DNA of 20,000 nt from an uncultured virus (IMG/VR IMGVR_UViG_3300028646_000003) (taxonomy: Duplodnaviria > Heunggongvirae > Uroviricota > Caudoviricetes), in the IMG/VR virus record IMGVR_UViG_3300028646_000003, positions 110,086-130,085 of that record; one strand, given 5' to 3'. How positions within the stretch are numbered: position 1 is the stretch's first letter; the number at the start of each line of letters is the position of its first letter. Shown here piece by piece: positions 5,548 through 18,691 of this stretch. The notes under the pieces were generated by a model. The model did not search any database. It was not told where the DNA came from and saw only the letters and a list, made by a program, of their open reading frames with translations. The position numbers were made by a program, and so were the translations under genes.

Positions 5548-7442
5548 TTATATAGAATTGAAATTTACTGATGAAACAAATGTTGGTGCTGTTGACCAAT
5601 CAACTTGTGGTGCTTGCTTATTAACTATTCCGTCACGTCTAAGGTTTTTTAAATGCCAAGCTAACATTACCATTGTGTAAGCTCTATCATCATGCATTTT
5701 ACTCTTTTTATCAGGAGGCAGTTCATATTTATAATTTATATCATCACCTTGTCTTCTTATTGCAATTAATTCTTCTTTTGCGTTATCAATTTGCTTTAAT
5801 GCCAATTCTTCGTCCCAAGATAGATTGTATTGTTTATAATCTATTGATTTTACCTTTTTCTTTTCATTCGTATCCTCATCAATTTCTTCAATCTCTTTTC
5901 CTTCCTGTGGTAGACTTAAGTACCCTTTCATATCATAATTATCTGTAAATTCAATTAGTCCTAAATTTAATAATTCTACAAAATCATCATACATTTCTGT
6001 TTTATATTTTTTAGGTGATACTAATTTTAATTTTCCTACTGCATTCGGATAAGAATTTACATGTTCAGCACAGGCTTCTTTATCAATTAATCCCCTATGT
6101 TTATTTCCTTGTTCATCTTCCCAGTCGTCCATAAAATAATCTGCGATTATCGGACCACCACCTCCTGAACCAGCATCAACTAGTAAACAATCTATATTCT
6201 CATAATCAGCCTTGCCTTTTCCGTTATAATTTATTAGCATTTGTTTTATCTCTTTAATTTGTTCTGGCGTTCTCATTGGAGTTTTTTTCTTTTTCCCTAA
6301 ATCCACAAGACTTACACAGTTTTGAATTATTAATTTCCATCCAACTTGTTCATCATATATATATTCTCCTACTGATGTCGCTGAATTATCATAATCATGT
6401 GCTGGATCATATGAAATTGCAATGTGTCTTTTTATATTTCCTTCATTAATTAATAATGGTTTTCTAACTGATGAATTTTTCATAATTACTGCACGTTTTA
6501 TAGGTTGTTTATTTCCACCATCAGCATCAAAACGATTAAAATATTCTCGATTTGCTTTCTCTGAGTTTGACCTTATTTCATCATCAACTTTAGATTGTGA
6601 TAACAATGGTATATTTAATTTTTTACCTTTTAATGTAGCTCCTATTATAACCTCACAATTTAAGTCAGCTACAAAATGGTCTTTACTTCCTGCAAACATT
6701 AACTTTGCCCACTCTTTATATAATGTATAAAATGCAGAATCCGTACTACTAGCAGATGAACAAAACAATAATTGATTAGGAATATTCATCGGTATAGTTT
6801 CGGTGTTTATACCACCACCTAACTTAAACGACGAATCCTGTGTACAAAATGATTTTGTAACTGAAATATAGTTTTCACTTATGAAACCACTTTCATCATA
6901 CAAATTTAAATTTGATCTTTTCCCTCTAATATTATCTTCTTCCCCAGAAACAGTAGTAACTTGACTGTTGTTAAATAGCTTACATCTAAATCCTTGAGGA
7001 GAGTGAACAAATCCATCATGGTTAGCACTTGCAGAAACTTCTCCTAAAAATATATCTGTTAATCCACAAAAAGATTCTATTTGTTTTTTTGCTATTGACT
7101 CCATTTTAAGTTGTCAAAGAAAGGTATCTTGGCTTTGACTTGCGGTTAATGAAAGTATAAAGCTTTGAAAGTTTGGAAATAACATCATTTTTGTCATTAT
7201 AAATGGAGAACTTAAAGTTGATTTACTCAGCCTCCATTACGAGACATCAACCATAATGCAAATTGTTTGCTCCATGATTCTTGAAATGTATATTTTTGAT
7301 AATCCATAAGTTCAAGTCCCAACACTAATTCTGCGAACTTTACAGGATTTCTTCTTCCCCATACAAGTATTTCATTGTATTTTAAATAACCTTCTAACTT
7401 TTTTTGAGTCAAATTACCTTTATTTATAATTGTGATACCCAT
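5548..7442 (-). CDS. terL: Terminase large subunit, interrupted twice by short TGA-led inserts (7225-7229 and 7108-7116); reconstructed about 626 aa
   Basis: Segment 1 (7442-7230) ends LMSRNGG. Segment 2 (7224-7117, different frame) reads KSTLSSPFIMTKMMLFPNFQSFILSLTASQSQDTFL. Segment 3 (7107-5548) reads KMESIAKK...IRGKRSNLNLYDESGF (Walker B)...YDPAHDYDNS...VDAGSGGGG...HDDRAY (nuclease). Joining restores Walker A SRNGGKST. Confidence 0.9.
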
Positions 7443-7493
7443 AATGAATTTAATTCACCTCCTTCTTATATCAATAAAGTTTGCTTAAACGCA

Positions 7494-7517
7494 ACAAAAG
7501 ACATGTTACCATGCCTT
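7494..7517 (-). terminator. Terminator-like hairpin between terS and terL
   Basis: Minus strand AAGGCATG-GTAA-CATGTCTT then TTGTTG (GNRA loop, short U tract). Confidence 0.45.
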
Positions 7518-7633
7518 CAGTTATTGAAACATATTTTTTTATTTAAATGCCTATTCACTATTATTATTATTATTATCATTTAATAACAATCTTAATTTAT
7601 CTCTACTAATACCCACTAATTTTGAAGCTTCGC

Positions 7634-9007
7634 TTATTCACTTATAACACTATTCAATATTTTTTGTTTTTCAATTTCTTTTTTATTTTTAATAACCTTA
7701 TCAATATGCTCCATAGTGTCAATAGGTACTATTTCCTCAACCATATTATTAAAACTTATTTGGTCTTCTTTATAATTCTGCTTTTGAATAGAGTCTTGTC
7801 CATCCTTTATGTCTCCGTAGTCCAAAACATCATAATAATCTGTTTCTAAAACATCTTGTTTATAATCTACATCATTGAAAGAGCAAATCGCCTTTAATTT
7901 TCTATTTTCTTCTCTTAATTTACTGTATTCTTGTTCATAAAAATTTATTTTTTCGTTTTGGAATTTTACCATATCTATTAAATCATCATCGCCAAAATTA
8001 AGATTTTCTACAATTGCTTTTGCGGATAATCTTGCTGTTTGTAACATACCATTAGAAGTCTGAATATCAAATAAATTAACTTGTGCTTCTTTTAAATCTA
8101 TTTCTTTTAACTTTTTAACCATGCCCGTTAATGTATTTGCACCGATTGTTTTATGACCACTATATAAATCACTAATCTTATTGTCTTTCGCTAAAGCCAA
8201 TAAACTTTTATTTAGTTTTTCTTTAGTGTCGGTTAAGCTTTTAATAGTTCCAATATTGTCTTTTATACTTTTTATATCAGAACTTAAATTTGTTATAACA
8301 TCATTTATTTTATTTTCTTGATTTTGACCTTTTATAATACTTATTATTGCACTATTTTTAAGCTCATCATTTTGACTATCTTCATCTAGCATATTTATCA
8401 ACTTGGCATACATTTTTGATTTATCTTCTTCTATTTCATTCTGAAAAGGATCATATCCGATTATTCTAATAATATCTTCTTTATTTTGTTTATCTCTTAC
8501 TCGTTGTTCAATTTCTTCGTCAGTAAACTCTTTAGGCTTAGATATAATTAAGCTATTTTCTTTTTCTTTGGTAGTATCATCCTCAACAATACTCATTCCT
8601 AAATCAATTTTATCTCCATGTTCAAAAGCATAACCTTTATAATTTTTAAGAGAATTTATTGTTTTTATGTATTTTTTCCATACTTCTAATCCATTTTGTA
8701 CTATAGTGAAATCTTTATTCCATCCTGCTTCTGTTAATGAACTATTGTATATTCCTTCGAGATATACAAAATCCAATAACTCACATATTTTATATATTGA
8801 TATTTTTATATCATTAGTTTCTTCTAAAAGTGATACATAAAAATTAGTTAAACAATCTTTACATAAAGATACTCTTCCAGTATAAGTATGTAATTTTGAA
8901 CTCGATGTGTAAAAATTATTTGTATTACTAAGTATTGTTCCACACTTAGTACATCTAGTTTTCCCTTTCATCTGCTCATCTAAATCTTTTGTCTTAAAAT
9001 CTGCCAT
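7634..9007 (-). CDS. Terminase small subunit-like protein with N-terminal Zn finger (probable)
   Basis: 457 aa with CTKC...CKDC at the N-terminus and a helical/coiled-coil body; immediately upstream of terL, as in SPbeta-like phages. Confidence 0.55.
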   Translation of the reverse strand: MADFKTKDLDEQMKGKTRCTKCGTILSNTNNFYTSSSKLHTYTGRVSLCKDCLTNFYVSLLEETNDIKISIYKICELLDFVYLEGIYNSSLTEAGWNKDFTIVQNGLEVWKKYIKTINSLKNYKGYAFEHGDKIDLGMSIVEDDTTKEKENSLIISKPKEFTDEEIEQRVRDKQNKEDIIRIIGYDPFQNEIEEDKSKMYAKLINMLDEDSQNDELKNSAIISIIKGQNQENKINDVITNLSSDIKSIKDNIGTIKSLTDTKEKLNKSLLALAKDNKISDLYSGHKTIGANTLTGMVKKLKEIDLKEAQVNLFDIQTSNGMLQTARLSAKAIVENLNFGDDDLIDMVKFQNEKINFYEQEYSKLREENRKLKAICSFNDVDYKQDVLETDYYDVLDYGDIKDGQDSIQKQNYKEDQISFNNMVEEIVPIDTMEHIDKVIKNKKEIEKQKILNSVISE

Positions 9008-9054
9008 TATATTTTCACCTACTTAATTTTTTACATAATAAAAAGTCACCAAAA

Positions 9055-10416
9055 TTAATTAGCAACTTCTAATTTTTTTAATATTTTATTACTTCTATAT
9101 TGTTCTTCTAACTGTTCGTCAAATGCTCCTTCAAAAAATCTAATTAAGAACTCATCAAACTGACTATGTGTATTTCTTCCATATCCATAATTTTGATGAA
9201 ATATTTTATGATATTCTTCTTTCATACATTTCCCTAATGGATACCTGTAATGAATTTCTGTACATTTACATATAATTTGTTTTATTTCCATATCTGTATA
9301 ATTACTTATAGTTTCATATATAGGTAATTTTAATTCTTCTAAAGTATCTCTAACTATATTATCAAAACTATATAAGTGATGAATATGATCAAACCTTTCC
9401 CCTGTAATAATACATTTGAAATTGCATTCTTTCATACTATCTAATTTCCATTGGTTAATATTTCTTCTTAATTCATTTTCTATATTACTAATTCCACCTT
9501 TATAATTAGGATTTAAACTACCAAATCTTGCAGAACCAAACATTGGATTATTTTCGCCTTTTGATTTTCCATTTTTAAGTCGAGTCTCACTTATTTTATT
9601 TCTCCATTCCTCAGTTTGTGCGTCATTTGTTGCTCTTAATTTACTTTCATCACTTTTATGTAAATTTAAACTATGAGCTTTATCCATAATTTGATTAATT
9701 GTTAAATGTGGGAAAAATTCATTCTTCATTTCATTATTGGTCATATCTGAATAATTATTTTGAATAATTATTACTTCTTCATCTTTCCATATGTATGAAT
9801 CAGATATTGCATAGTTCTCACCTTTACATTTTTTGCATACGTTTCTAAAACCATCACTACAAGTATTATCTTTTGGAAAATATAAAAATTCTAATGGTAA
9901 ATATTCATTACAGCACTTGCATAATTTGTATCTTTTGCCTTTAATGTCTTTATATTTTATTTTGTCATAATCTTCTACTACATTATTTATTTTATATAAT
10001 CCTAGTTTTTTACTCATATGTAATACAGATTTTTCAGTACGATTAACGCTAAGCAATGGAATTATCTCTTTGATTATTAATTTATTATAATTAGCTATAA
10101 TAATATCTTTATCCCTTTGACTCCATGTATCTTTCTCATTAGAACAATTTAAACACTTAGACAAATATCCATCTTTAGCTTTAGCATATAATCCAAATTC
10201 TGATACCTCTTTTTTAATATTACAACATTTGCAAACTTTATATCCATCTTTAGCATAGAACTTTTCTCTATATTTAATTTCTTGTTCTGTTTTTGCTTTA
10301 TTCCTACAAGCTTTACATGTATTTTCAAAACTTCCATTTTTGTTTTTATAAAAATTTTCCTCGTTTAATTCTTTTTCTTGTCCACATTTTTTACATTTTC
10401 TTATTTCCATAATCAA
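9055..10416 (-). CDS. Modular HNH (homing) endonuclease with Zn-finger repeats and NUMOD-like motifs
   Basis: Three CxxC...CxxC repeats, two W(S/K)xxxxxII-type repeats, TEEWRNKISETR/GENNPMFG/NPNYKGG motifs, C-terminal CIITG...HIHHLY...YHKIFHQNYG HNH-like core. Confidence 0.7.
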   Translation of the reverse strand: MIMEIRKCKKCGQEKELNEENFYKNKNGSFENTCKACRNKAKTEQEIKYREKFYAKDGYKVCKCCNIKKEVSEFGLYAKAKDGYLSKCLNCSNEKDTWSQRDKDIIIANYNKLIIKEIIPLLSVNRTEKSVLHMSKKLGLYKINNVVEDYDKIKYKDIKGKRYKLCKCCNEYLPLEFLYFPKDNTCSDGFRNVCKKCKGENYAISDSYIWKDEEVIIIQNNYSDMTNNEMKNEFFPHLTINQIMDKAHSLNLHKSDESKLRATNDAQTEEWRNKISETRLKNGKSKGENNPMFGSARFGSLNPNYKGGISNIENELRRNINQWKLDSMKECNFKCIITGERFDHIHHLYSFDNIVRDTLEELKLPIYETISNYTDMEIKQIICKCTEIHYRYPLGKCMKEEYHKIFHQNYGYGRNTHSQFDEFLIRFFEGAFDEQLEEQYRSNKILKKLEVAN

Positions 10417-10467
10417 ATTCCTCCTAAATTGCTAATATCACATAGCTCATTATTTTATAATTTATTT

Positions 10468-11136
10468 CTATAAATAACTTTTAACTTTTTCATCATCAAT
10501 TTTTACTAAACCAAATAACTTCAAACTATCTAAATCTAGTTCTTTCCCTGAAGCATAATATTCTGGATTTATGTAAATAGCTTTTTTATGACCATATTGA
10601 ACTCTTTTTAACATATTTTTATCTTCCAAAGATTTTAAAGCAGTAATTATACTTCTTTCAGTTAATCCTATAATTGGTTCTAGTTCTTTAATAGTAGGAA
10701 TATGATCATTAATTACAATACAATTAGTAGGATACTGAATGAAATCTCTCATTATATAAAATACTAGCTTTTCATTTGTATTTAATTTCATATTCATCAC
10801 TCCCTCAATTTTATTCCTATAAACTATATTGAACTCACCGTTATCAAAATTCTCCCTTGCTTTACCACTCTTTTTCCTTTTAACTTTCTTCTTAGTTAAA
10901 CTTTGTTCATTCTCTATGCCAAATTCAGTATTAGACACATAATTAGCAGTAGCAAACATTTCTGTTTTATACTTTTCTAATTTAGTTTGTATTATTTTGT
11001 CATGCTCTGATTTTGTTATAAATTCACCAGTTTCAGACTGAATAAAACTACCACCTTGTATTTCTAAAAATTTACTATCTTCTTCAATTATAAAATATCT
11101 TATTAATTCACCTATATTATTGTTTTGCATCTTCAT
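10468..11136 (-). CDS. Winged-HTH protein, RepL/MarR-like C-terminal domain
   Basis: PTIKELEPIIGLTERSIITALKSLEDKNML...AIYINPEY resembles the firmicute RepL-type HTH; AAGGAGG RBS. Confidence 0.6.
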   Translation of the reverse strand: MKMQNNNIGELIRYFIIEEDSKFLEIQGGSFIQSETGEFITKSEHDKIIQTKLEKYKTEMFATANYVSNTEFGIENEQSLTKKKVKRKKSGKARENFDNGEFNIVYRNKIEGVMNMKLNTNEKLVFYIMRDFIQYPTNCIVINDHIPTIKELEPIIGLTERSIITALKSLEDKNMLKRVQYGHKKAIYINPEYYASGKELDLDSLKLFGLVKIDDEKVKSYL

Positions 11137-11165
11137 AATGCCTCCTTAAATTTATTTTTACGCAC

Positions 11166-11216
11166 AACAAAAGACTGAATATCACAACAGTTAATACTGC
11201 ATGTAGTTCAGTCTTT
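11166..11216 (-). terminator. Terminator-like hairpin
   Basis: Inverted repeat AAAGACTGAA (11170-11179) / TTCAGTCTTT (11207-11216); on the minus strand followed by TGTTGTG. Confidence 0.45.
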
Positions 11217-11274
11217 CATACTTAATACTCATATTTAATTTATTTAACATTAGTTGTATCAGCACTTTACAAAC

Positions 11275-11571
11275 TTACTCTTCTTTGTTCTTCATATTAT
11301 TTTGAGTTCTAATAGCGTCAGCTATTACCCTTTTTATCTGTAATAATTTGTTGATATAATCTTGTAGACATATATTAGTTTTATTTTTAAAATCTTGTTC
11401 CAATTTAATCAAATCTTCTTTATAGCCTTCAATATAAAAAAATACTTTGTAATCACTTTTATATCTTTTATTTTCTTTCACCTCAATATTATTATATGTA
11501 TAACCATTAAGAAGTAAGTAAGCTACCATTTCAGATTGACTATATTTGTAATTAACTTTTTCCATATTCAA
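11275..11571 (-). CDS. Small hypothetical phage protein
   Basis: 98-aa ORF with AGGAGG RBS. Confidence 0.7.
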   Translation of the reverse strand: MNMEKVNYKYSQSEMVAYLLLNGYTYNNIEVKENKRYKSDYKVFFYIEGYKEDLIKLEQDFKNKTNICLQDYINKLLQIKRVIADAIRTQNNMKNKEE

Positions 11572-11728
11572 ATTCCTCCTATATAATTTATTTTAGGTAT
11601 TCTACAAGATAATTTTACCATATAGAATACTAATTTACAATACTTTATTACATTAATTTATTATTTCTAGCTATCCACCTAATAGGCAAATATCATAAAA
11701 ACAATAAGCATTATACGTTAAAAATAGA

Positions 11729-11767
11729 CTAGACAACAACTCATCTAGACAACAACTCATCTAGACA
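11729..11767. repeat. Tandem direct repeat, 16-bp unit CTAGACAACAACTCAT x about 2.4
   Basis: ctagacaacaactcat (11729-11744), ctagacaacaactcat (11745-11760), ctagaca (11761-11767). Confidence 0.9.
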
Positions 11768-11869
11768 CCTTAAAACCATATTAAATTAATTATATGTTGT
11801 AAGTAATCTTTGATTACGCCACAACAAATCATGCTTTAGCATGACAACCCCGTAGAGTATAATAATCTA

Positions 11870-12484
11870 TTAATTACCTTGCTTCATATCTTGTAATACT
11901 TTAATTTGCTTTAATATATTTTCCCTTGATAACGTTGTATTTTTATTCTTAGGTGTTTCAGCGTATTCAATCATTAATTCTTCTATTTGAGTATCACAAA
12001 AACTACTACGAGTAATTTTAGACTGTCTACTATCTATATATTCAATATTATCATTAGTAATCATGCAATATATTTGTTTAACGTCCATAGGTTTTAATAT
12101 ACTATCAATATATTCTTTATTTAAATAACATTCGTCAAAGAAAGCAATTTCAATATTTCTACACGCTTTAAATTGAGTATTAGGATTAATATAAAACACT
12201 TCTAATTTGTTACCATCATTAAATTCTATAGAATCCCTTTCTCTAGATGATTTATATAATTTTATAGAATTACTTTCTTTATATGTGTATTCTTTAAAAT
12301 AATCTTGTAGTATTCTACTTGAAAATGGTGAAATATATAAATACTTCCCGTTCTTATTCTCTATGATCTTCCTAAACACAGAATAAGTTTTTCCTTCTCC
12401 TCGTTCCCAATTACATACTACAATTTCCTTTTTACTATTTAACATTTTGTCTTGATAAACTCTCATCTCACTCATTTTTATCAA
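11870..12484 (-). CDS. Small P-loop protein resembling a terminase ATPase N-terminal domain
   Basis: VVCNWERGEGKT (Walker A-like), YLYISP, IAFFDE (Walker B-like); 204 aa, no nuclease domain. Confidence 0.6.
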   Translation of the reverse strand: MIKMSEMRVYQDKMLNSKKEIVVCNWERGEGKTYSVFRKIIENKNGKYLYISPFSSRILQDYFKEYTYKESNSIKLYKSSRERDSIEFNDGNKLEVFYINPNTQFKACRNIEIAFFDECYLNKEYIDSILKPMDVKQIYCMITNDNIEYIDSRQSKITRSSFCDTQIEELMIEYAETPKNKNTTLSRENILKQIKVLQDMKQGN

Positions 12485-12631
12485 ACTCCTTCTTATATAA
12501 TCTTTATTTACCTATCCATCTTGATAAGCATAACTAAAATTACATATAAAAAGGACTAGATATATTTCAACCTAATCCTAATAAGGACATAAAATTTTAC
12601 TTTTAACTGCTTTTTATATTAATTTATTAAC

Positions 12632-13261
12632 TTAAATATGATCAATACTTTCTCTAACGTCCTTTAAACAATCATCGAATCCTTCTTCGTAGCCCATCTC
12701 AATAGCATCAGAAATTGTATCTTTAATTAAATTATAGATATTTCCAACTAAGTATTTGTCTAAATCCAGTTCGTCAATGCTTGATAAAAGTTCTTCAAAT
12801 AAAATCTCTGTTGTATCTTCTTCTTCAATTTCTTTTTCGTAATCTTCGTCGTCACTATATTCACAATTATCGCAGTCATAATTACATTCTTCTTCTGAAT
12901 CATTTTCATATGTACATTCAACTAACATTACCATTCCAGAAAACTTCTTTATATCAATGCAATCAGCTAAATCGGAGTCTATAAAAACAATATCACTATC
13001 ATCTTCTAATGTTTCTCCATCTTTACTGAAGACTTTTTCTATAAAATATTCTATTTCTCCATCTTCATAAATGTTTTTAGCAATTGCTAATATATCATTT
13101 TCTTCTATTAGATTTTCAACATAATCAAAATCAGCTTCACAGAATTGAACTCCATCTTCCATTAATTCTAAAACTGTTTCACCAATTTCTATGCCATCAC
13201 CAATAAATACTGTACCTGATTCTTCTGAATTTAGTATCATTTCTTTAATTAATTCTTGCAT
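12632..13261 (-). CDS. Highly acidic hypothetical protein with CxxxCxxC motif
   Basis: 209 aa, very D/E-rich, ECNYDCDNCE; GAGGGAG RBS. Confidence 0.75.
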   Translation of the reverse strand: MQELIKEMILNSEESGTVFIGDGIEIGETVLELMEDGVQFCEADFDYVENLIEENDILAIAKNIYEDGEIEYFIEKVFSKDGETLEDDSDIVFIDSDLADCIDIKKFSGMVMLVECTYENDSEEECNYDCDNCEYSDDEDYEKEIEEEDTTEILFEELLSSIDELDLDKYLVGNIYNLIKDTISDAIEMGYEEGFDDCLKDVRESIDHI

Positions 13262-13299
13262 TTTTTATTATCTCCCTCACTTATAATATTTAATTTATT

Positions 13300-13650
13300 T
13301 TATACTTGACTATCATCTTGAATATCTTGTTTAATTTTTGTGGCTTCTAAATTCATTCTACCTGTACTTTCATTAAGAATATATTGAAAAGCATCAGCAT
13401 TATTTACTCCTACAGATACTAATCCGATAAATTGCCCACAAGCAAAACTAATATCTTTCAAACCTTTTTTAAATATATCTTCGTCTAATTCAAATCCATT
13501 TAACTCATCAGTATTGATTTCAATCCTAGGTGTTATTTCTTCTATAATATCTAAAACTTCATCTTTACTATAATATTCTTGTTCTTCCATAGGCTGATTT
13601 GGTTCTATTTCTTCAACTTTATTTAACTCTTCTTTACACATAATTCTCAC
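13300..13650 (-). CDS. Hypothetical acidic protein
   Basis: 116-aa ORF (start GTG 13650 or ATG 13641), co-oriented within the operon. Confidence 0.7.
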   Translation of the reverse strand: MRIMCKEELNKVEEIEPNQPMEEQEYYSKDEVLDIIEEITPRIEINTDELNGFELDEDIFKKGLKDISFACGQFIGLVSVGVNNADAFQYILNESTGRMNLEATKIKQDIQDDSQV

Positions 13651-13659
13651 CTATATCCT

Positions 13660-14256
13660 TTATATAATTATTTCATCAGCAACATTTAATTTTAAAGCAG
13701 TAGCACCATCCATATAAAAGTCTTTATTACTCTTTGTATAGCTATCAAATTGTTCTTTAGTTATACCTGTTTTCTCAGTTATTAAATCAACTATTAACTT
13801 GTACCATCTATCGCATTGCTCTCTATCATTTACAGTATCTTGATATGTCTCAGTACCGTATCTAAATCTATTCCATTGGTGTCACATTAAATCACTTCTC
13901 TTATATACAAATCTTTTAGATCCACATATAAATATTTTGAATGCCATTGAATAAGCATAGCTTGTACAATATGTATGAATTTCTATCCCTTTATTAATGT
14001 AATATTCCATTAGGTCACAAAAATGCATTCCATCAACTAAACTTCCTCCTGGAGAAGCTATGATTAATTTTATTGGTGTTCTATCTTCCTTGCTCAATGA
14101 TAGTTGTTTAGTGGCAAGTTTCTTTAATTGTCTTGATAACATTATTATAAATTCAGTTGTAATTTCATCATCAATATATAGTGTATTATTATCTTTGTAA
14201 TCTACTAATTTGATTTCTTCTAGCAATAAATTCCGTTGTTGATATACTTCTCCCAT
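13660..14256 (-). CDS. ClpP-like protease with an in-frame TGA (13882-13884) just before the catalytic His; 198 codons if read through
   Basis: PIKLIIASPGGSL, AYSMAF (catalytic Ser), KRFVYKRSDLM*HQW, continuing in frame ...EKTGITKEQFDSYTKSNKDFYMDGATALKLNVADEIII-TAA, which matches the ClpP C-terminal D.YM...A...G..D.I pattern. Confidence 0.85.
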
Positions 14257-14286
14257 AACTTTTCACCATTAATCCTTTATTTTATT

Positions 14287-15522
14287 TTAATTGATTTGTA
14301 AATTTATATCTCTTATATATTCAACTCCATCATAGTTAACTAAAATTAGAGTTTGACTTGCATGTGTTGTACATTGAAGTTTGTCCACACTATATGGATT
14401 CATACCAAATAATGAACCTATAGTTGTTACGTACCCACCATTATTTTGTGAACTTACACCAAAATTATGATAATGTCCTCTTATTAACATAGCATACTTT
14501 ATATTATTCATACTTGTTTCTGTGTCATAGAATTTCTTATCTTCTTTAGGACTTTTATCACCATGTTTAACTTTTATAACTCCAAAACCTAAGTCAAACT
14601 CTCCACAATCTTCTTTAAAATCAATATCACAAACGTTGACTCTATCATTCTTAGCTAAAGTAAACCACTTCTTTAAATTCTTAACTATGGTATAATTGTT
14701 GTTATCTCCTTCAATATTTCCATCTTTATAAGCTTGGTTTCCACGCTGATGGTTTCCACCTACTGAATATAAGTCTACATTTACCTTCATTTCTGATATA
14801 CTTGTAATAAATCCATATAGCAATTCCTCAGCCATAACAATCTGTTCATTACTATTAAATTCACAACTATATGATTGATCTTGTCCACGCATATAAATTC
14901 CTTCAGTTAAATCTCCAGCTTGCACTACTATAACTTTAGATATATCATTTTTATGTATTTCTTTTTCTATTTCAGATAAGAATCTAGATAATCTCTTTTT
15001 AGCTATTTCATAATTATAACTATTTCCTCTATAATCCTTAATAATGTATCCTATATGCCAATCTGAAATGCAACAAATTAGTGTTTTTTCTGATTCATCT
15101 TCAATTCTTTTATAAGATAAAGGTAGAAAGTTTTCACATTCTCTATCAATATACTCATTTATGTAATTTGCAATTTCAATATTCTTTATAAAGTCTTTCT
15201 TTATTCTGTTAAGTTTATTAGTATCATTACGAATTAATTGCTTTTTAACATCTAACTCACCAATCAATTCAGTGACTTCGTCTATTTTATTTTTTACTGC
15301 TTTATCACCTTTTAAAGATTCCAAACATTCAGCACACGCAATTTCATAAATTTTATATATACCACGGAAATAACTCTCTTGGAAGTCAGTTCCAAGTTCT
15401 TGATTAATTACTTCTGCAATTTCTCTATTAATCATATTAAATTGTGTTTTGTTAGAATACATTCTATGTATATATTTTTCTCTTGACTCGATTTCCGATT
15501 TTAAATATCTTTCATCTTCCAT
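14287..15522 (-). CDS. Calcineurin-like metallophosphoesterase
   Basis: Motifs ISDWHIG, AGDLTEG, GGNH, KHGD, RGHYH; N-terminal coiled-coil extension. Confidence 0.85.
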   Translation of the reverse strand: MEDERYLKSEIESREKYIHRMYSNKTQFNMINREIAEVINQELGTDFQESYFRGIYKIYEIACAECLESLKGDKAVKNKIDEVTELIGELDVKKQLIRNDTNKLNRIKKDFIKNIEIANYINEYIDRECENFLPLSYKRIEDESEKTLICCISDWHIGYIIKDYRGNSYNYEIAKKRLSRFLSEIEKEIHKNDISKVIVVQAGDLTEGIYMRGQDQSYSCEFNSNEQIVMAEELLYGFITSISEMKVNVDLYSVGGNHQRGNQAYKDGNIEGDNNNYTIVKNLKKWFTLAKNDRVNVCDIDFKEDCGEFDLGFGVIKVKHGDKSPKEDKKFYDTETSMNNIKYAMLIRGHYHNFGVSSQNNGGYVTTIGSLFGMNPYSVDKLQCTTHASQTLILVNYDGVEYIRDINLQIN

Positions 15523-15565
15523 AATAATTCTCCCTCATTATTATTTTACTTTCATAATTTGTTTT

Positions 15566-15772
15566 CTAAAGCTTTATAATATCTGTACTTTCTCCACATT
15601 TATTGCAATAAAAAATATATTCTTCATTTGTGCCTATCTTTTCAAAATCCTGCAAAGACACTTTTTCATCAATATCTATATTACTTTTGCAATTCTTACA
15701 TTTAACATCTTTATACTTTTTGTGTTGTTTCTTTTTATCTTTATTACTCATTCTTCCATCTTCTTTTAACAT
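15566..15772 (-). CDS. Small Zn-ribbon protein
   Basis: CKNC...CNKC; start may be the downstream Met (MSNKDK). Confidence 0.65.
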   Translation of the reverse strand: MLKEDGRMSNKDKKKQHKKYKDVKCKNCKSNIDIDEKVSLQDFEKIGTNEEYIFYCNKCGESTDIIKL

Positions 15773-15820
15773 CTCATATCTTCCCTTTACTCTTTAATTT
15801 TTAATTAATTTTAAATACAT

Positions 15821-15853
15821 TAAAAGCTCATAACATCACATGCAATGAGTTTT
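15821..15853 (-). terminator. Terminator-like hairpin
   Basis: Inverted repeat AAAAGCTCAT / ATGAGTTTT, U-rich on the minus-strand 3' side. Confidence 0.35.
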
Positions 15854-16096
15854 ATCATATATTTAATTTATTTCCTATTCATTTTACTATTTACATATTG
15901 CACATTTAAGTTTATAATATAAATTGGTATATTATACAATAAACTTATCTGGAACAATATTTAATCCCTATCCGTAATGTTCTATTCATCTAATCCCATA
16001 GGGTAAAACTCTTGTACTTCGAGTTTCATATAATCGGAAGCTTTTCCAGTTAACAAAGAACTATCGTAATTCATTAATCCTGTTGAAGGCTTTATT

Positions 16097-16186
16097 TGGA
16101 GGAGAGTGAGGGATTCTAACCCTCGATACGAATAAACGTATGCTGATTTAGCAAACCAGTGCATTCGGACACTCTGCCAACTCTCC
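16097..16186 (-). tRNA. tRNA-Ser(GCT), long variable arm, encoded CCA
   Basis: Acceptor GGAGAGT/ACTCTCC; anticodon arm CTGGT-TTGCTAA-ATCAG; variable arm ATACG-TTTATT-CGTAT; T arm GAGGG-TTAGAAT-CCCTC; 3' end TCCA. Confidence 0.92.
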
Positions 16187-16189
16187 GTG

Positions 16190-16860
16190 TAATGTGATAT
16201 TATTATTTAACCTCCCATATATCACAAAAGGGAATACATCTTTTTTGTTAGAGCCATCATAACTCAATTCATTATTTGTGTGGATATATTCCAACCCAAT
16301 ATCTAATCATTCTAGAATGAACAATTAGTCACGATGGTACAGCTAGAATGCCTCCATCTATCAATACAATGTATTTTTGTCGCACATTGTGAAGCGTATT
16401 TGTATCATAGGTTTTTATTTTTCAAGATCAAATCTCTAGTTACACCTAAGTTTACCTAAAACTCTAAATAAGACTCCATATTTACCCGTAACAAGGCAAA
16501 TACTTCATTGTCGTTCTCTCAACTTAAAGTATTGAGTATGAGGTAAGTATATTACCAACTAATAAAATTCACTGTTTGTAGTATTTAGTATGTTATTAGT
16601 AAATTTTTAGTATTGATTTCCTTATTCCCACTTGGGCAAAATTCTTCTTTGTCTGAGTTTCTAACTCACTTCAATATTTGTTGGGAATCTATACCTCGTT
16701 CTTTATAATCTTTGAATAACAGACTATGTATTACCCAATAGCCAAGCAAATCATGGTATTATTATTCCCCCACTAGGGAAAGGATCGTTATTCTTTTACT
16801 CCTTATAAAACAGTTCTTTTAATGAAAGGTCACGTCTATTTCTAGTACATGCCTTTGTTC
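16190..16860 (-). ncRNA. Candidate large structured non-coding RNA upstream of the tRNA
   Basis: About 670 nt with no ORF of 60 aa or more in a gene-dense operon; many hairpins (e.g. TATTTGCC/GGTAAATA, TGAGTT/AACTCA, TTCCC/GGGAA, CTCAAT/GTTGAG, AAAGG-CATGT/ACGTG-ACCTTT). Family not identifiable by eye. Confidence 0.35.
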
Positions 16861-16865
16861 ACATT

Positions 16866-17057
16866 TTATTCTTCAGATGGTATATCATTATCCTTTTTAA
16901 TTGTTACAGTTAGTCCGTCTTCTCCAATCCATTTTCTAATTTGATTTGTTAGATTGTATGTTTTAGAATCATCTTTTCCAACTTCTGTAATCTTAAATTC
17001 TCCATCTTCCTCAGTTATTACTGCTTTTGAAAAACTTACATTTTTAGTTTCTTTCAT
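16866..17057 (-). CDS. YonK-like small phage protein
   Basis: 63 aa; ITEVGKDDSKTYNL...GEDGLTVTIKKDNDIP resembles SPbeta YonK in size and pattern; AAGGTGGAG RBS. Confidence 0.6.
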   Translation of the reverse strand: MKETKNVSFSKAVITEEDGEFKITEVGKDDSKTYNLTNQIRKWIGEDGLTVTIKKDNDIPSEE

Positions 17058-17059
17058 AA

Positions 17060-17182
17060 TTATTTCTCCACCTTTTCGTTATTCTTTTTCTTTTCATTTA
17101 ACATTTTAATTGGTTGGTTTTGTAAATTATTTAAGGACTGATAGTTAAATCCTGATAATGTACGCTTAGTTGAATTTTTCAT
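17060..17182 (-). CDS. Small 40-aa ORF below the track cutoff
   Basis: AAGGAGAG RBS, then MKNSTKRTLSGFNYQSLNNLQNQPIKMLNEKKKNNEKVEK-TAA; fills the gap between the MBL and YonK-like genes. Confidence 0.5.
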   Translation of the reverse strand: MKNSTKRTLSGFNYQSLNNLQNQPIKMLNEKKKNNEKVEK

Positions 17183-17215
17183 TCTATTTCTCTCCTTATT
17201 TCTACATTAATTTGT

Positions 17216-18691
17216 TTATAAAATGAATTGTGAAGCAAATTTACTTACTCCTACAATTTTAGTTGTTTTATTTTTACTTTGTAGATATTCAGTTCCCTTT
17301 TCTTTCATTTCAATTTTTCCTTCTTCAGTACAATGGTGTATTAGAATCTTATTTGTGTTTATTTGACTCCAGTAGCTAAAAATTTCTTCTTGTTGAATGT
17401 GGCTCGAAAATGTTTTCTGAGTAAGAACATCACAACTTTTTATTAATGTACTTCCATCAATTTTAATAGGAGTGCCTATTGGTCTAGTAACTAATTCATG
17501 AGAAATTGAACCTTCAGCTCCGTAATATCCTACGAAACAAATTAGATCTCCTGTAACTCCCATAAAATTTTTAACATAGTCACAACTACGTGTTTTAGGT
17601 TGAACAAATCCACTAGAACTTATGTAAATTCCACATTCTCTTTTAGATAATATTCCCAAAGTACCTTTATATTCTTTATTATAACGAAAATTCTTCCAGT
17701 TTTTTATTCTCTCCCAGTCCTCAAATTCATCATATTTTAATATCTTGCTATAAGTATCACATATAGAATTAGTTAATCTTCCATCAATTGTTACTGGTAT
17801 TTCATTAAACCATTCTTCATCTTTAAAAAACGAATTTATTAAAAATTGTAACTCTTGGGTACGCCCGAAAGAAAAGGAAGGAAAAAATACTCGGTGTCCA
17901 CTTTTTAAATATTTAGTTAAAGTTTCTTTTAGTTCATTTCTTTCTTTTTCTACTAAATTTTTATCAAAGCACTTTTCAGAGTTTGAATAAGTTGCCTCAA
18001 AAACGTACATTGAAGCCTTAGGAATTATATCTCTTTTCTTTACAAATGGTTTATATTTTAAATTGTAATCTGATCCCAAATCGCTTGTGTAAACTAAGGA
18101 TTTTATATTATTGTTAGGTAGTCTAAAAGTAAGTTTCAATTGAGTACCACCTAATACATGTCCAGAATTATAAAATTCATAACTTAACCAATCATCAAAT
18201 TTATATACTTGATGTGTTTCAACTGTTTTTACCTTCTCTAACATCTTATACATATCTAATTCAGTATATAAGTTTTTAGGTCTTTTCCCTTTTGCTTTTA
18301 AACCTTTTATTAAACAATCATGTAAATACACACTATCTTTTAATAATTCTTTAGATATCATTAAACATTCTTCTGTTGTAATTATTTCACCTTTGAATAT
18401 ATCTTGTCCAAATATAGGTGTGTTCCCAATATGGTCTACTCAGACGTGGGAGTGCATTAAAAACACTCCCGAAATACCTCCTACTGGAATATTTTCAACC
18501 ATTTTTTTATTCATTGAATATTCTATCTCTGGTTTTGATTCTCCTTGTATCATGCCACATTCTAGACAAACGCATTTATGTTTGTCATTTCCTATAGGAT
18601 AGCTAATTAATAAAGCAGATCCACAAATATCGTCCCTACTTCCACCGACAAAACTTAAAATTATATCATTATCCTTATTCTTTTTGCTCAT
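17216..18691 (-). CDS. Metallo-beta-lactamase / beta-CASP (CPSF/RNase J-like) hydrolase, interrupted by a 6-nt TGA-led insert in HxHxDH; reconstructed about 489 aa
   Basis: N-terminus LSFVGGSRDDICGSALL, LECGMIQ, FLMHSHV*VDHIG, continuing in frame through TPIFGQ...EECL into the 381-aa ORF with SGHVLG, YTSDLG, EATY, PSFSFGRTQE, SSGF, FSSHI, ILIHH. Confidence 0.9.

What the first reader, a model, noticed from the sequence alone, without database searches (positions are those of the whole stretch)
7108..18445. Candidate multi-gene recoding system: four TGA-led interruptions at or near catalytic motifs of three phage enzymes
Seen in sequence (mRNA sense): TerL Walker A GGA GGC [TGAGT] AAA TCA ACT; TerL TTT CTT [TGA CAA CTT] AAA ATG; MBL CAC GTC [TGA GTA] GAC CAT; ClpP ATG [TGA] CAC CAA. 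Each TGA immediately follows the last correct codon, and the rest of each gene is intact. The contexts pair up: CTGAGTA twice and TGACA twice. Of the 19 tracked minus-strand gene ends I checked, 15 are TAA, 3 TAG and only 1 TGA, so four TGAs out of four is not the local stop bias. No other lesions are visible in the operon. Established knowledge: T4 gene 60 bypassing uses take-off codon + stop + matching landing codon + hairpins, and a short bypass has been proposed for the Streptomyces phage phiHau3 terminase. Inference: this phage gates DNA packaging, proteolysis and RNA processing through one shared UGA-dependent event (ribosomal stop-hopping, RF2-limited recoding, or excision of micro-inserts from RNA), possibly as a host- or stage-specific switch. 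Alternative: scars left by lost mobile introns/elements that target conserved motifs, giving a defective prophage.
Basis: partly seen in the sequence, partly recalled or inferred. Interest (0 to 1): 0.93.

Follow-up and report, generated by a model that had tools for sequence, protein, structure and literature searches.

The report
Stop-led ribosome hop sites in phage genes
Three tiny TGA-led inserts break the DNA-packaging and RNase-like genes of this peat phage, and their design, shared with many related phages, suggests that ribosomes hop over them; the fourth TGA is an ordinary point change.

Summary
Three are insertions relative to every homologue compared: 5 nt in the TerL Walker A loop, 9 nt at TerL DTFL|KME, and 6 nt in the HxHxDH motif of a beta-CASP metallo-beta-lactamase-fold protein (MBL). 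The fourth, in ClpP, is a TGC-to-TGA substitution at an invariant Cys codon, so it is a different kind of lesion.

The inserts are not decay. In TerL genes of related Clostridium and Paenibacillus (pro)phages I found 15 more micro-gaps of 2-14 nt. Counting the window's three, that makes 18 versions at 12 sites:
- A stop follows the last good codon in 15 of 18 (about 1.4 expected).
- The last gap triplet is synonymous with that codon in 13 of 18 (about 1 expected).

With the gaps skipped, five relatives' TerL genes read as single ORFs of 612-626 codons. Pairs sharing a gap are saturated at synonymous sites, with dN/dS about 0.04. The MBL insert is kept in a 95% relative, with dN/dS 0.04-0.09 on both sides.

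Best reading: programmed short translational bypassing ("stop-hops"), triggered here by UGA. The closest published case is the phiHau3 terminase. The Walker A gap lies one codon from an intein homing site. No protein evidence exists yet.

The parts
5548..7442 (-). Large terminase (TerL) gene in three coding pieces: codons 1-71 (7442..7230), 72-107 (7224..7117) and 108-625 (7107..5551), plus the stop
   Evidence: Alignment to full-length homologues of 620-636 aa. The pieces translate cleanly. dN/dS against L034 is 0.08, 0.07 and 0.10 for the three pieces.
7225..7232 (-). W1: take-off GGC (7232..7230) followed by the 5-nt gap TGAGT (7229..7225) inside Walker A (SRNGG|KSTL). The landing triplet AGT (7227..7225) pairs only at positions 2 and 3. 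Decoding resumes at AAA (7224..7222).
   Evidence: Relative L039 has GGC|TGACATAATAC|GGT at the same site, and W1 equals that gap minus 9 nt. The gap is retained in contigs of three other studies.
7108..7119 (-). W2: take-off CTT (7119..7117), gap TGA CAA, landing CTT (7110..7108); a +9 in-frame stop-hop at DTFL|KME. Decoding resumes at AAA (7107..7105).
17216..18691 (-). Beta-CASP metallo-beta-lactamase-fold (MBL) nuclease-like gene in two pieces (18691..18443 and 18436..17219), plus the stop
   Evidence: Pfam Beta-Casp. PDB matches to Ysh1, IntS11, CPSF73 and TTHA0252. Homologue alignment. dN/dS against L022 is 0.086 (N part) and 0.043 (C part).
18437..18445 (-). W3: take-off GTC (18445..18443), stop TGA (18442..18440), landing GTA (18439..18437). 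Nine nucleotides specify one Val inside HSHV|DH.
   Evidence: The site is identical in the 95% relative L022.
18448..18470 (-). Predicted 8-bp hairpin (GGGAGUGU / GCACUCCC) ending 2 nt upstream of the W3 take-off codon
   Evidence: MFE -20.5 kcal/mol, z = -2.9, 1 of 200 shuffles folds as well. Function is inferred only.
7202..7238 (-). Predicted hairpin (AAUGGAGG / UUCUCCAUU) enclosing the W1 take-off codon, stop and gap. It includes the SD-like GGAGG formed by GGA GGC.
   Evidence: z = -1.85, 9 of 200 shuffles fold as well. GGAGG is also present in gap-bearing L039 and absent (GGT GGA) in gap-free L034. This is weak evidence.
13660..14256 (-). ClpP-family protease gene with an in-frame TGA (13884..13882) at the invariant Cys next to the catalytic His (LM[C]HQ). 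This is a different lesion class from the three gaps.
   Evidence: Pfam CLP_protease. L028 has TGC. Cys in 11 of 11 homologues. No downstream hairpin, z = +1.7. dN/dS is 0.098 and 0.099 on the two sides.

Best explanation
The two TerL gaps and the MBL gap are programmed short-range translational bypass sites ('stop-hops').

Proposed mechanism: a ribosome carrying peptidyl-tRNA on the take-off codon (GGC, CTT or GTC) meets UGA in the A site. Termination there is slow. The peptidyl-tRNA unpairs, the mRNA slides 5, 9 or 6 nt, and the same tRNA re-pairs with a synonymous or near-cognate landing triplet (AGT, CTT or GTA). Decoding then resumes at the next codon. The products carry the canonical motifs NGGKSTL, DTFLKMES and HSHVDHIG with no extra residue.

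Shown here:
- The gaps exist and are absent from homologues.
- The architecture of stop plus matching landing codon recurs far beyond chance.
- Genes with such gaps stay under strong purifying selection on both sides.

Inferred:
- The ribosomal mechanism itself and its efficiency.
- Any dependence on RF2 level.
- That the gaps persist because they break the target sites of homing inteins or endonucleases, as proposed for the T4 gene 60 gap.

The ClpP TGA is separate. It is a nonsense substitution at an invariant Cys that either kills the gene or needs low-level UGA misreading.
For: 1. Recurrence. 27 of 80 IMG/VR TerL-relative loci (five of them contigs of the window's own phage) and 2 of 6 genome-contig loci (one of them the same Paenibacillus pini contig as an IMG/VR locus) carry micro-gaps of 2-14 nt. 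With the window's three there are 18 sequence-distinct versions at 12 sites.
2. A stop sits in the 0-frame directly after take-off in 15 of 18 (12 TGA, 2 TAG, 1 TAA), against 1.4 expected.
3. The landing triplet shares nt 1-2 with, and is synonymous to, the take-off codon in 13 of 18, against 0.7-1.2 expected. Sliding the landing triplet by 1-3 nt gives 0-1 of 18 for nt 1-2 and 0-2 of 18 for synonymy. The mismatches are at wobble positions (GAA/GAG, GAG/GAA, GTC/GTA, CAG/CAA, CTG/CTA, GGC/GGT). That is codon-anticodon logic, not DNA duplication.
4. With gaps skipped, TerL of L036, L037, L109, L052 and L091 reads as one ORF of 612-626 codons with 0 stops.
5. Long maintenance. L036 and L037 share a 12-nt gap with different interiors, at dS about 1.9 and dN/dS 0.02 upstream and 0.05 downstream. 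L052 and L091 share a 4-nt gap at 60% aa identity. The window and L022 share the MBL gap at dS 0.33 and 0.59 and dN/dS 0.086 and 0.043.
6. L037 and L109 have two tandem stops in the gap (TGA TGA), which argues against simple readthrough.
7. Cultured-isolate genomes carry such gaps: Clostridium cuniculi has three in one TerL, and Paenibacillus pini JCM 16418 has one.
8. Contigs from two RNA libraries and a third run labelled RNA-Seq (which the tool judged probably DNA), all from other habitats, span W1 with 0 gaps.
9. Precedent, from passages I read. The 10-nt UUA-led gaps of phiHau3 TerL were supported by a junction peptide (PMC10732093). Synthetic 'stop-hops' in which 9 nt specify one amino acid are described in PMC5009743.
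Against: - There is no protein, ribosome-profiling or reporter evidence, and the efficiency is unknown. TerL needs two successive hops.
- The W1 landing triplet AGT is not cognate to GGC (first-position mismatch). The same holds for L052, L091 and L089. L039b (CTG|CG|GTA) does not match at all. L042 and L101 (CGA|A|CGA) have no stop after take-off.
- One contig (L006/L035) combines the TGAG gap with a 4-nt deletion 38 nt downstream. That would undo a hop, so it is either a defective variant or evidence that the gap is not hopped there.
- Predicted hairpins are modest (z -1.6 to -2.9) and overlap coding sequence. There is no common SD-like element.
- The family also contains plain nonsense codons: TAA at a Tyr codon in L105 and L106, and the window's ClpP TGA. 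Some copies may therefore be decaying.
- No cultured phage in the GenBank phage set has a close TerL relative; the best match is 27% identity. No gap-bearing element is therefore known to make virions.
- The 18 versions are not all independent, and I read the gap boundaries from alignments myself.
Confidence: 0.7

Rival explanations
1. Conventional recoding without a hop. The shifts would be +1 or +2 frameshifting with out-of-frame A-site decoding (W1: GGC TG AGU, adding Ser) and UGA readthrough (W2, W3). The resulting proteins would carry 1-3 extra residues.
For: At W1, L052 and L091 the shifted-frame codon is AGY (Ser), and reading it also restores the frame. The phage's only tRNA is tRNA-Ser(GCU), which reads AGY.
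Against: - The extra residues would fall between the invariant G and K of Walker A, and between HxHx and DH of the metal site. No homologue has any length variation at either place.
- L039's gap at the same Walker A site has a stop in the +2 frame, so only the +14 hop restores the frame.
- Tandem stops in L037 and L109 argue against readthrough.
- Frameshifting does not explain why the triplet 4-14 nt downstream is synonymous with the take-off codon.
Confidence: 0.1
2. Plain pseudogenes. The element would be a defective prophage or plasmid-like relic, and the inserts would be inactivating scars, for example of lost introns or inteins.
For: - ClpP carries an ordinary nonsense substitution.
- L105 and L106 carry a TAA at a Tyr codon, and L006 carries a further 4-nt deletion.
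- There are no close cultured phage relatives.
- A RepL-like gene could allow plasmid maintenance.
- The gaps co-localise with intein sites.
Against: - dN/dS is 0.02-0.10 on both sides of gaps shared by lineages with dS of 0.3 to about 1.9.
- There are 0 other stops in 612-626 codons once the gaps are skipped.
- The excess of stops and of matching landing codons is non-random.
- The same phage, with its gaps, is found in at least 18 peat runs, and near-identical sequence occurs in three other habitats.
Confidence: 0.08
3. Removal of the micro-inserts at the RNA level, by an unknown micro-splicing or editing activity, before translation.
For: The mRNA sequence has not been tested directly. The sites coincide with homing sites of mobile elements.
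Against: - Contigs from two RNA libraries (X21, X22) retain the W1 gap. The caveats are that these are contigs and that DNA carry-over is possible.
- No Rfam family hits the window at the gaps.
- No known mechanism removes 2-14 nt, and wobble-level synonymy between take-off and landing codons is not expected from an RNA-cutting mechanism.
Confidence: 0.06
4. A changed genetic code, with TGA read as an amino acid (table 4 or 25), or selenocysteine, explains the TGAs.
For: The ClpP TGA replaces an invariant Cys, which is the classic Sec/Cys pattern. The genome is 27% GC.
Against: - W1 is a 5-nt frame shift that no code can fix.
- Table 11 gives 95% coding. There are 10 ordinary TGA gene ends and no suppressor tRNA.
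- There is no stable hairpin after the ClpP TGA (z +1.7) and no SECIS hit.
Confidence: 0.03

Closest known systems
Candidate UUA-triggered bypassing in the large terminase of Streptomyces phage phiHau3 and the StrepC.1 and S. catenulae prophages (Smith et al. 2013, as described in PMC10732093; I read passages)
   Same: Short frame-disrupting blocks (7-10 nt) interrupt TerL, including two blocks in one gene. A slow-to-decode codon sits at the 5' end of each block. The flanks are contiguous in relatives. The proposed mechanism is a hop rather than a frameshift because the junctions are invariant.
   Different: The trigger here is a UGA stop, or TAG/TAA in relatives, not the rare sense codon UUA. 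The hosts are low-GC Firmicutes. The gaps span 2-14 nt. There are many more sites (12) and lineages, and a second gene (MBL) is affected. No experiment has been done here.
Synthetic 'stop-hops' in E. coli (Weiss et al. 1987, as cited in the review PMC5009743; I read passages)
   Same: Matched codons flank a stop, so that 9 nt specify one amino acid. This is exactly the form of W3 (GTC TGA GTA) and of L040b (CAG TGA CAA).
   Different: Those were laboratory constructs of low efficiency. The 2016 review states that no natural occurrences of in-frame stop-hopping were known. Here the form is natural and conserved under selection.
T4 gene 60 50-nt bypass cassette and its homologues (abstracts of bioRxiv 10.1101/2022.08.31.505936 and 10.1101/2024.12.09.627546, seen in the listing; review passage)
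   Same: Both have a take-off codon, an adjacent stop and a matched landing codon. Both are associated with a homing-endonuclease element, and the gap is proposed to protect against cleavage.
   Different: The gaps here are 5-9 nt, not 50. I saw no sign of the gene 60 nascent-peptide signal or its take-off stem-loop. The genes are TerL and MBL, not topoisomerase.
Magnusiomyces capitatus mitochondrial 'byps' (mentioned in PMC5009743 and PMC10732093)
   Same: Many short inserts are translationally 'corrected', with several per gene and matched codons.
   Different: Those are 27-55 nt GC-rich mobile clusters (this detail is recalled, not from a call) in a mitochondrial translation system. Here the gaps are 2-14 nt and stop-led, in phages.
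prfB (RF2) +1 frameshift site CUU UGA C (recalled knowledge)
   Same: W2 and L036 contain the same heptamer, CTT TGA C. CTT is the take-off codon in 5 of 12 TGA-led gaps. UGA recognition by RF2 would be the competing reaction.
   Different: At W2 the +1 frame ends in a stop after 7 codons, so a +1 shift cannot give TerL. There is no SD-like element at the prfB spacing.

Membership tests
Programmed translational bypassing (hop) | A non-coding gap interrupts an ORF whose flanks are contiguous in homologues | tested here: met
   the gaps are 5, 9 and 6 nt and are absent from 14 of 14 TerL and 12 of 12 MBL homologues.
Programmed translational bypassing (hop) | Take-off and landing codons are readable by the same peptidyl-tRNA | tested here: inconclusive
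   Met at W2 (CTT/CTT) and W3 (GTC/GTA). Only positions 2-3 match at W1 (GGC/AGT). Across the family 13 of 18 match.
Programmed translational bypassing (hop) | A slow-to-decode A-site codon (a stop or a rare codon) lies directly 3' of the take-off codon | tested here: met
   TGA at all three window gaps, and a stop in 15 of 18 across the family.
Programmed translational bypassing (hop) | A junction peptide or full-length product is made from the two frames | not testable with these tools
   No proteomic data. Purifying selection on both sides is only indirect support.
Programmed translational bypassing (hop) | Stimulatory signals are present (hairpin, SD-like element or nascent peptide) | tested here: inconclusive
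   Predicted hairpins have z of -1.85, -1.63 and -2.92. GGAGG lies at W1 and at L039a only. WG(R) lies upstream of three relatives' sites, as KGWG does in phiHau3.
T4 gene 60 cassette homologues | A gap of about 50 nt with GGA take-off and landing codons, in a topoisomerase subunit gene | tested here: not met
   The gaps are 5-9 nt, the codons differ, and the genes are TerL and MBL.
phiHau3-type UUA-triggered bypass | The rare codon UUA lies at the 5' end of the gap in a host where its tRNA is limiting | tested here: not met
   The gaps start with TGA. The genome is 27% GC, and TTA occurs as an ordinary sense codon in the TerL sequence read.
Stop-codon reassignment (table 4 or 25, recoded phages) | TGA is frequent inside ORFs, is not used as a terminator, and a suppressor tRNA is present | tested here: not met
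   95% coding under table 11; 10 ordinary TGA gene ends; the only tRNA is tRNA-Ser(GCU).
Selenocysteine insertion (ClpP TGA only) | UGA lies at a Cys position of homologues and a SECIS hairpin follows just downstream | tested here: not met
   The Cys part is met, with 11 of 11 homologues. The hairpin part is not met: z +1.7 and no Rfam hit. The host's Sec machinery cannot be tested.
RF2-type +1 programmed frameshift | CUU UGA C with a +1 frame that encodes the rest of the protein | tested here: not met
   The heptamer is present at W2, but the +1 frame reads DNLKWSQ and then a stop.

The most novel reading that the evidence does not exclude
This would be the first natural family of UGA-triggered 'stop-hops'. 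Tiny gaps of 2-14 nt would arise or spread at the homing sites of inteins, introns and endonucleases in phage genes. They would immunise the gene against invasion while ribosomes hop over them. They would also make synthesis of the packaging motor depend on how fast the host's RF2 terminates at UGA, which would act as a built-in sensor of host translational state.
Probability: 0.3. Interest if true: 0.9.

Novelty: new variant of a known kind. Interest (0 to 1): 0.8.

Why it matters
Utilised translational bypassing is known from very few systems. The 2016 review I read in passages says that no natural in-frame stop-hop was known.

This finding offers 12 sites and 18 versions of one simple architecture, kept under selection in an essential phage gene. 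Two cultured hosts, Clostridium cuniculi and Paenibacillus pini JCM 16418, carry gap-bearing copies. The rules of short hops would therefore become directly testable: how far the ribosome slides, how much landing mismatch is tolerated, and what the stop context contributes.

The finding also bears on annotation. About half of the 120 best TerL homologues in the protein collection are called as N-terminally truncated ORFs starting just after such sites. It further suggests a link between selfish homing elements and recoding.

Tried and rejected
- **Alternative code.** Tables 4 and 25 were rejected.
- **MBL TGA as the second His.** I considered that the MBL TGA sits at the second His of HxHxDH with no indel, as an ungapped PDB alignment suggested. 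I rejected this after aligning 12 close homologues.
- **A fifth lesion.** The candidate at genome position 107412 is an ordinary ATGA start/stop overlap.
- **Tandem duplication as the origin.** This fits only L042 (CGAA CGAA), not the window gaps.
- **Group I or II introns.** There were no Rfam hits at E <= 0.01 in nine relatives' loci with 200-1030 nt inserts. The inserts at Walker A turned out to be in-frame inteins.
- **SECIS after the ClpP TGA.** None was found.
- **A phage release-factor gene.** PF00472 was not found in the record, which is 74% complete.
- **MBL homologues in five relatives' records.** None was found with that query.
- **GenBank phage set.** There was no match to the window TerL by DNA or protein, and only 27%-identity terminases to a relative.
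- **Metagenome-contig scan.** It added only contigs already seen, plus one L034-like contig.
- **Earlier notes of this scan.** There are none for this genome or for the TerL sequence, and a first word search also found nothing. A search for 'translational bypassing terminase' found analogous cases in other genomes; I used them as leads only.
- **Depth and uncovered parts.** These were not interpreted.

Full report
**What the window is.** The window is the last 20 kb of a 130,085-bp single-contig virus record. The record is 27% GC and CheckV rates it 74% complete. Table 11 gives 95% coding in ORFs of 100 aa or more. The record encodes one tRNA, tRNA-Ser(GCU). Nearly all genes in the window are on the minus strand. 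They include:
- TerL, 7442..5548;
- a ClpP-family protein, 14256..13660 (Pfam E 1e-19);
- a beta-CASP metallo-beta-lactamase-fold (MBL) protein, 18691..17216 (Pfam Beta-Casp; PDB matches to Ysh1, IntS11, CPSF73 and TTHA0252).

The quoted strings are present.
- TerL: 14 of 14 homologues read SRNxGKSTL and DTF[LMI]KME without a gap. W1 is therefore a 5-nt insert and W2 a 9-nt insert.
- MBL: an ungapped PDB alignment first suggested that the TGA might stand for the second His of HxHxDH. Twelve of 12 full-length close homologues read H-x-H-[IVCA]-D-H, so the window has a 6-nt insert.
- ClpP: 11 of 11 homologues have Cys at the TGA, with no length change. An 87% relative has TGC there. This site is a substitution, not an insert.

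The inserts are identical in other IMG/VR contigs of the same phage. The 88% and 85% TerL relatives lack W1 and W2.

TGA is otherwise an ordinary terminator in this genome. Thirteen of 137 ORFs end in TGA. Three of those are the W1, ClpP and MBL stops, and the other ten have normal gene boundaries. The W2 TGA ends a 36-codon piece that was too short to be listed. I found no further lesion in the record.

**The decisive evidence comes from relatives.** I scanned IMG/VR with an alignment of full-length TerL proteins and obtained 80 loci. A tblastn junction analysis found short frame-breaking or stop-containing inserts in 27 of them. Five of the 27 are contigs of the window's own phage. Two of six loci from isolate or MAG genomes also carry such inserts. 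Clostridium cuniculi has three gaps in one TerL. Paenibacillus pini JCM 16418 has one, and its contig is the same as IMG/VR locus L091.

Counting the window's three gaps, there are 18 sequence-distinct versions at 12 sites. They fall into four groups. Each is written as take-off | gap | landing, with the shift in nt.

Full match between take-off and landing codon, with a stop directly after take-off:
- CTT|TGACAA|CTT (+9, W2)
- GTC|TGA|GTA (+6, W3)
- GAA|T|GAG (+4) and GAG|T|GAA (+4)
- CTT|TGACGAAGG|CTT and CTT|TGATGAAAG|CTT (+12)
- GTG-to-GTA, overlapping (+2, followed by TAA)
- GGC|TGACATAATAC|GGT (+14, at the same site as W1)
- CTG|TGAG|CTA and CTT|TGAA|CTA (+7)
- CAG|TGA|CAA (+6)

Full match without a stop:
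- CGA|A|CGA (+4), at two different sites

Match at codon positions 2 and 3 only:
- GGC|TG|AGT (W1), CGT|T|AGC, CGA|T|AGT, CTT|TG|ATT

No match:
- CTG|CG|GTA

A stop follows take-off in 15 of 18 versions, against 1.4 expected from the local triplet frequency. The landing triplet is synonymous with take-off in 13 of 18, against 0.7-1.2 expected. Sliding the landing triplet by 1-3 nt gives 0-2 of 18. All the differences between matched pairs are at the wobble position, which fits re-pairing of a tRNA and not duplication of DNA.

The statistic has limits. The versions are not all independent, and I set the gap boundaries from alignments.

**These genes are alive.** Skipping the gaps turns TerL of L036, L037, L109, L052 and L091 into single ORFs of 612-626 codons with no stop.
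- L036 and L037 share the 12-nt gap, with different interiors. They have dS of about 1.9, and dN/dS of 0.02 upstream and 0.05 downstream.
- L052 and L091 share a 4-nt gap at only 60% amino-acid identity.
- For the window's own MBL gap, the 95% relative L022 carries the identical TGAGTA. The flanks differ at dS 0.33 (N part) and 0.59 (C part), with dN/dS 0.086 and 0.043.
- The window's TerL pieces against L034 give dN/dS of 0.08, 0.07 and 0.10. L034 lacks W1 and W2, so this comparison cannot date them.
- W1 equals the L039 gap minus nine bases. The frame offset was therefore conserved while the length changed.

**Reads.** The stretch is held by at least 18 peat-metagenome runs, which may belong to one campaign. 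Three contigs span W1 with 0 gaps:
- X21, a wastewater RNA library, positions 7189-7339, 3 differences;
- X22, a rice-paddy RNA library, positions 7119-7359, 9 differences;
- X19, a run the tool judged probably DNA.

The gap therefore travels with near-identical phages in other habitats and is present in material sequenced as RNA. These are contigs, and DNA carry-over cannot be excluded.

**Mechanism.** The best-supported reading is short translational bypassing. UGA in the A site is slow to terminate, the P-site peptidyl-tRNA unpairs and the mRNA slides. The tRNA then re-pairs at the landing triplet and decoding resumes. This yields the canonical motifs with no extra residue.

Readthrough or simple frameshifting would instead insert residues between the invariant G and K of Walker A, or inside HxHxDH. 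It also cannot cope with the tandem stops of L037 and L109, or with the +2-frame stop in the L039 gap.

Possible stimulators are predicted but weak:
- an 8-bp hairpin ending 2 nt before the W3 take-off codon (z -2.9);
- hairpins that enclose W1 (z -1.85) and W2 (z -1.6);
- a GGAGG formed by GGA GGC at W1 and at L039a, which gap-free relatives lack.

G or C follows TGA in 8 of 12 TGA-led gaps of these AT-rich genes. From recalled knowledge, this fits weak termination contexts.

**Link to mobile elements.** In six relatives, in-frame LAGLIDADG inteins (GK|ALxLDT...THN|ST) sit in the Walker A loop, one codon downstream of the W1 and L039a gap. The six are L049, L083, L062, L081, L053 and L110. 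L094 has a mini version. Other relatives have 200-320 nt non-coding inserts near Walker B. Five truncated MBL homologue calls start a few codons before VDH/IDH, which hints at other inserts at the W3 site. A gap next to a homing site would split the endonuclease's target, as has been proposed for T4 gene 60 (review passage). This part is inference.

**ClpP.** The TGA replaces an invariant Cys next to the catalytic His. No landing codon is available, no hairpin follows (z +1.7), and no SECIS family matches. It is either a recent nonsense mutation or depends on UGA misreading. dN/dS is about 0.10 on both sides, which cannot date the change.

**Results against my reading.**
- The W1 landing codon is imperfect.
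- One version (L039b) has no match, and two versions have no stop.
- L006/L035 carries a compensating 4-nt deletion.
- L105 and L106 carry a plain TAA at a Tyr codon.
- No close cultured phage exists in the GenBank set searched.
- There is no protein evidence.

**Comparison with what is known.** The closest published case is phiHau3 TerL, with two 10-nt UUA-led gaps and a junction peptide found in E. coli (PMC10732093, passages read). W3 has exactly the form of the synthetic 'stop-hop'. The 2016 review states that no natural in-frame stop-hop was known (PMC5009743, passages read).

My three literature searches found no paper describing stop-led micro-gaps in Firmicute phage terminases. The library lacks most subscription journals, and I did not look at supplements. 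Earlier unchecked notes of this scan describe analogous terminase gaps in other genomes.

**Verdict.** This is a new variant of a known kind, with high interest and about 0.7 confidence in the hop reading for the three gaps.

Noticed in passing
window 16097-16186 (-): This is the only tRNA of the 130-kb record, tRNA-Ser(GCU). Its codons AGY are the shifted-frame or landing triplets at W1 (AGT) and at two relatives' gaps (AGC, AGT). This may be coincidence.
   Followed up: partly
window 16404-16513 (-): A near-threshold match to the 'drum' RNA family lies next to the tRNA, in a 1.4-kb stretch without long ORFs. The score is 40.2 bits against a gathering score of 43, E 1.4e-4.
   Followed up: no
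window 10468-11136 (-): The protein has weak RepL (plasmid replication) and HTH_36 matches. This hints that the element may be maintained as a plasmid-like prophage.
   Followed up: no
L049, L083, L062, L081, L053 and L110 (about 1 kb each); L094:1383-1799: In-frame inteins in the TerL Walker A loop (GK|ALxLDT...THN|S/T) begin with Ala rather than Cys. The long ones carry a LAGLIDADG_3 domain. L094 has a mini form of about 137 codons with no Pfam hit.
   Followed up: partly
L042-L048 (TerL, locus positions about 1768-1972 and 2493-2811): Non-coding inserts of about 200 nt and about 317 nt interrupt TerL, and residues 169-203 are encoded twice. No Rfam intron family matched. L038, L040, L053 and L080 have inserts of 250-270 nt after RGK, just before Walker B.
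   Followed up: partly
L006 / L035 (IMG/VR contig of 16.8 kb): This contig has the TGAG gap plus a 4-nt deletion (AATC) 38 nt downstream. The 0-frame is restored after 13 garbled codons. It is either a defective variant or a compensated frameshift.
   Followed up: partly
L105, L106 (TerL position about 2893): A TAA replaces a conserved Tyr codon (DDRA*). This is a plain nonsense change in prophage copies from isolate-derived records.
   Followed up: no
Protein collection, TerL homologues P0001-P0120: About half of the 120 best homologues are called as ORFs of under 600 aa that start at the first Met after known gap, intein or intron sites (MDYQKY, MGIQFLD, MTKGKST, MESIAK, MKRSNLNLYDE). Interrupted TerL genes are therefore routinely mis-annotated in this family.
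   Followed up: partly
Relatives L052, L091, L042 (TerL residues about 27-32): The take-off codons follow the peptide WGR or WGRR. The phiHau3 gaps follow KGWG, where a nascent-peptide effect has been suggested.
   Followed up: no
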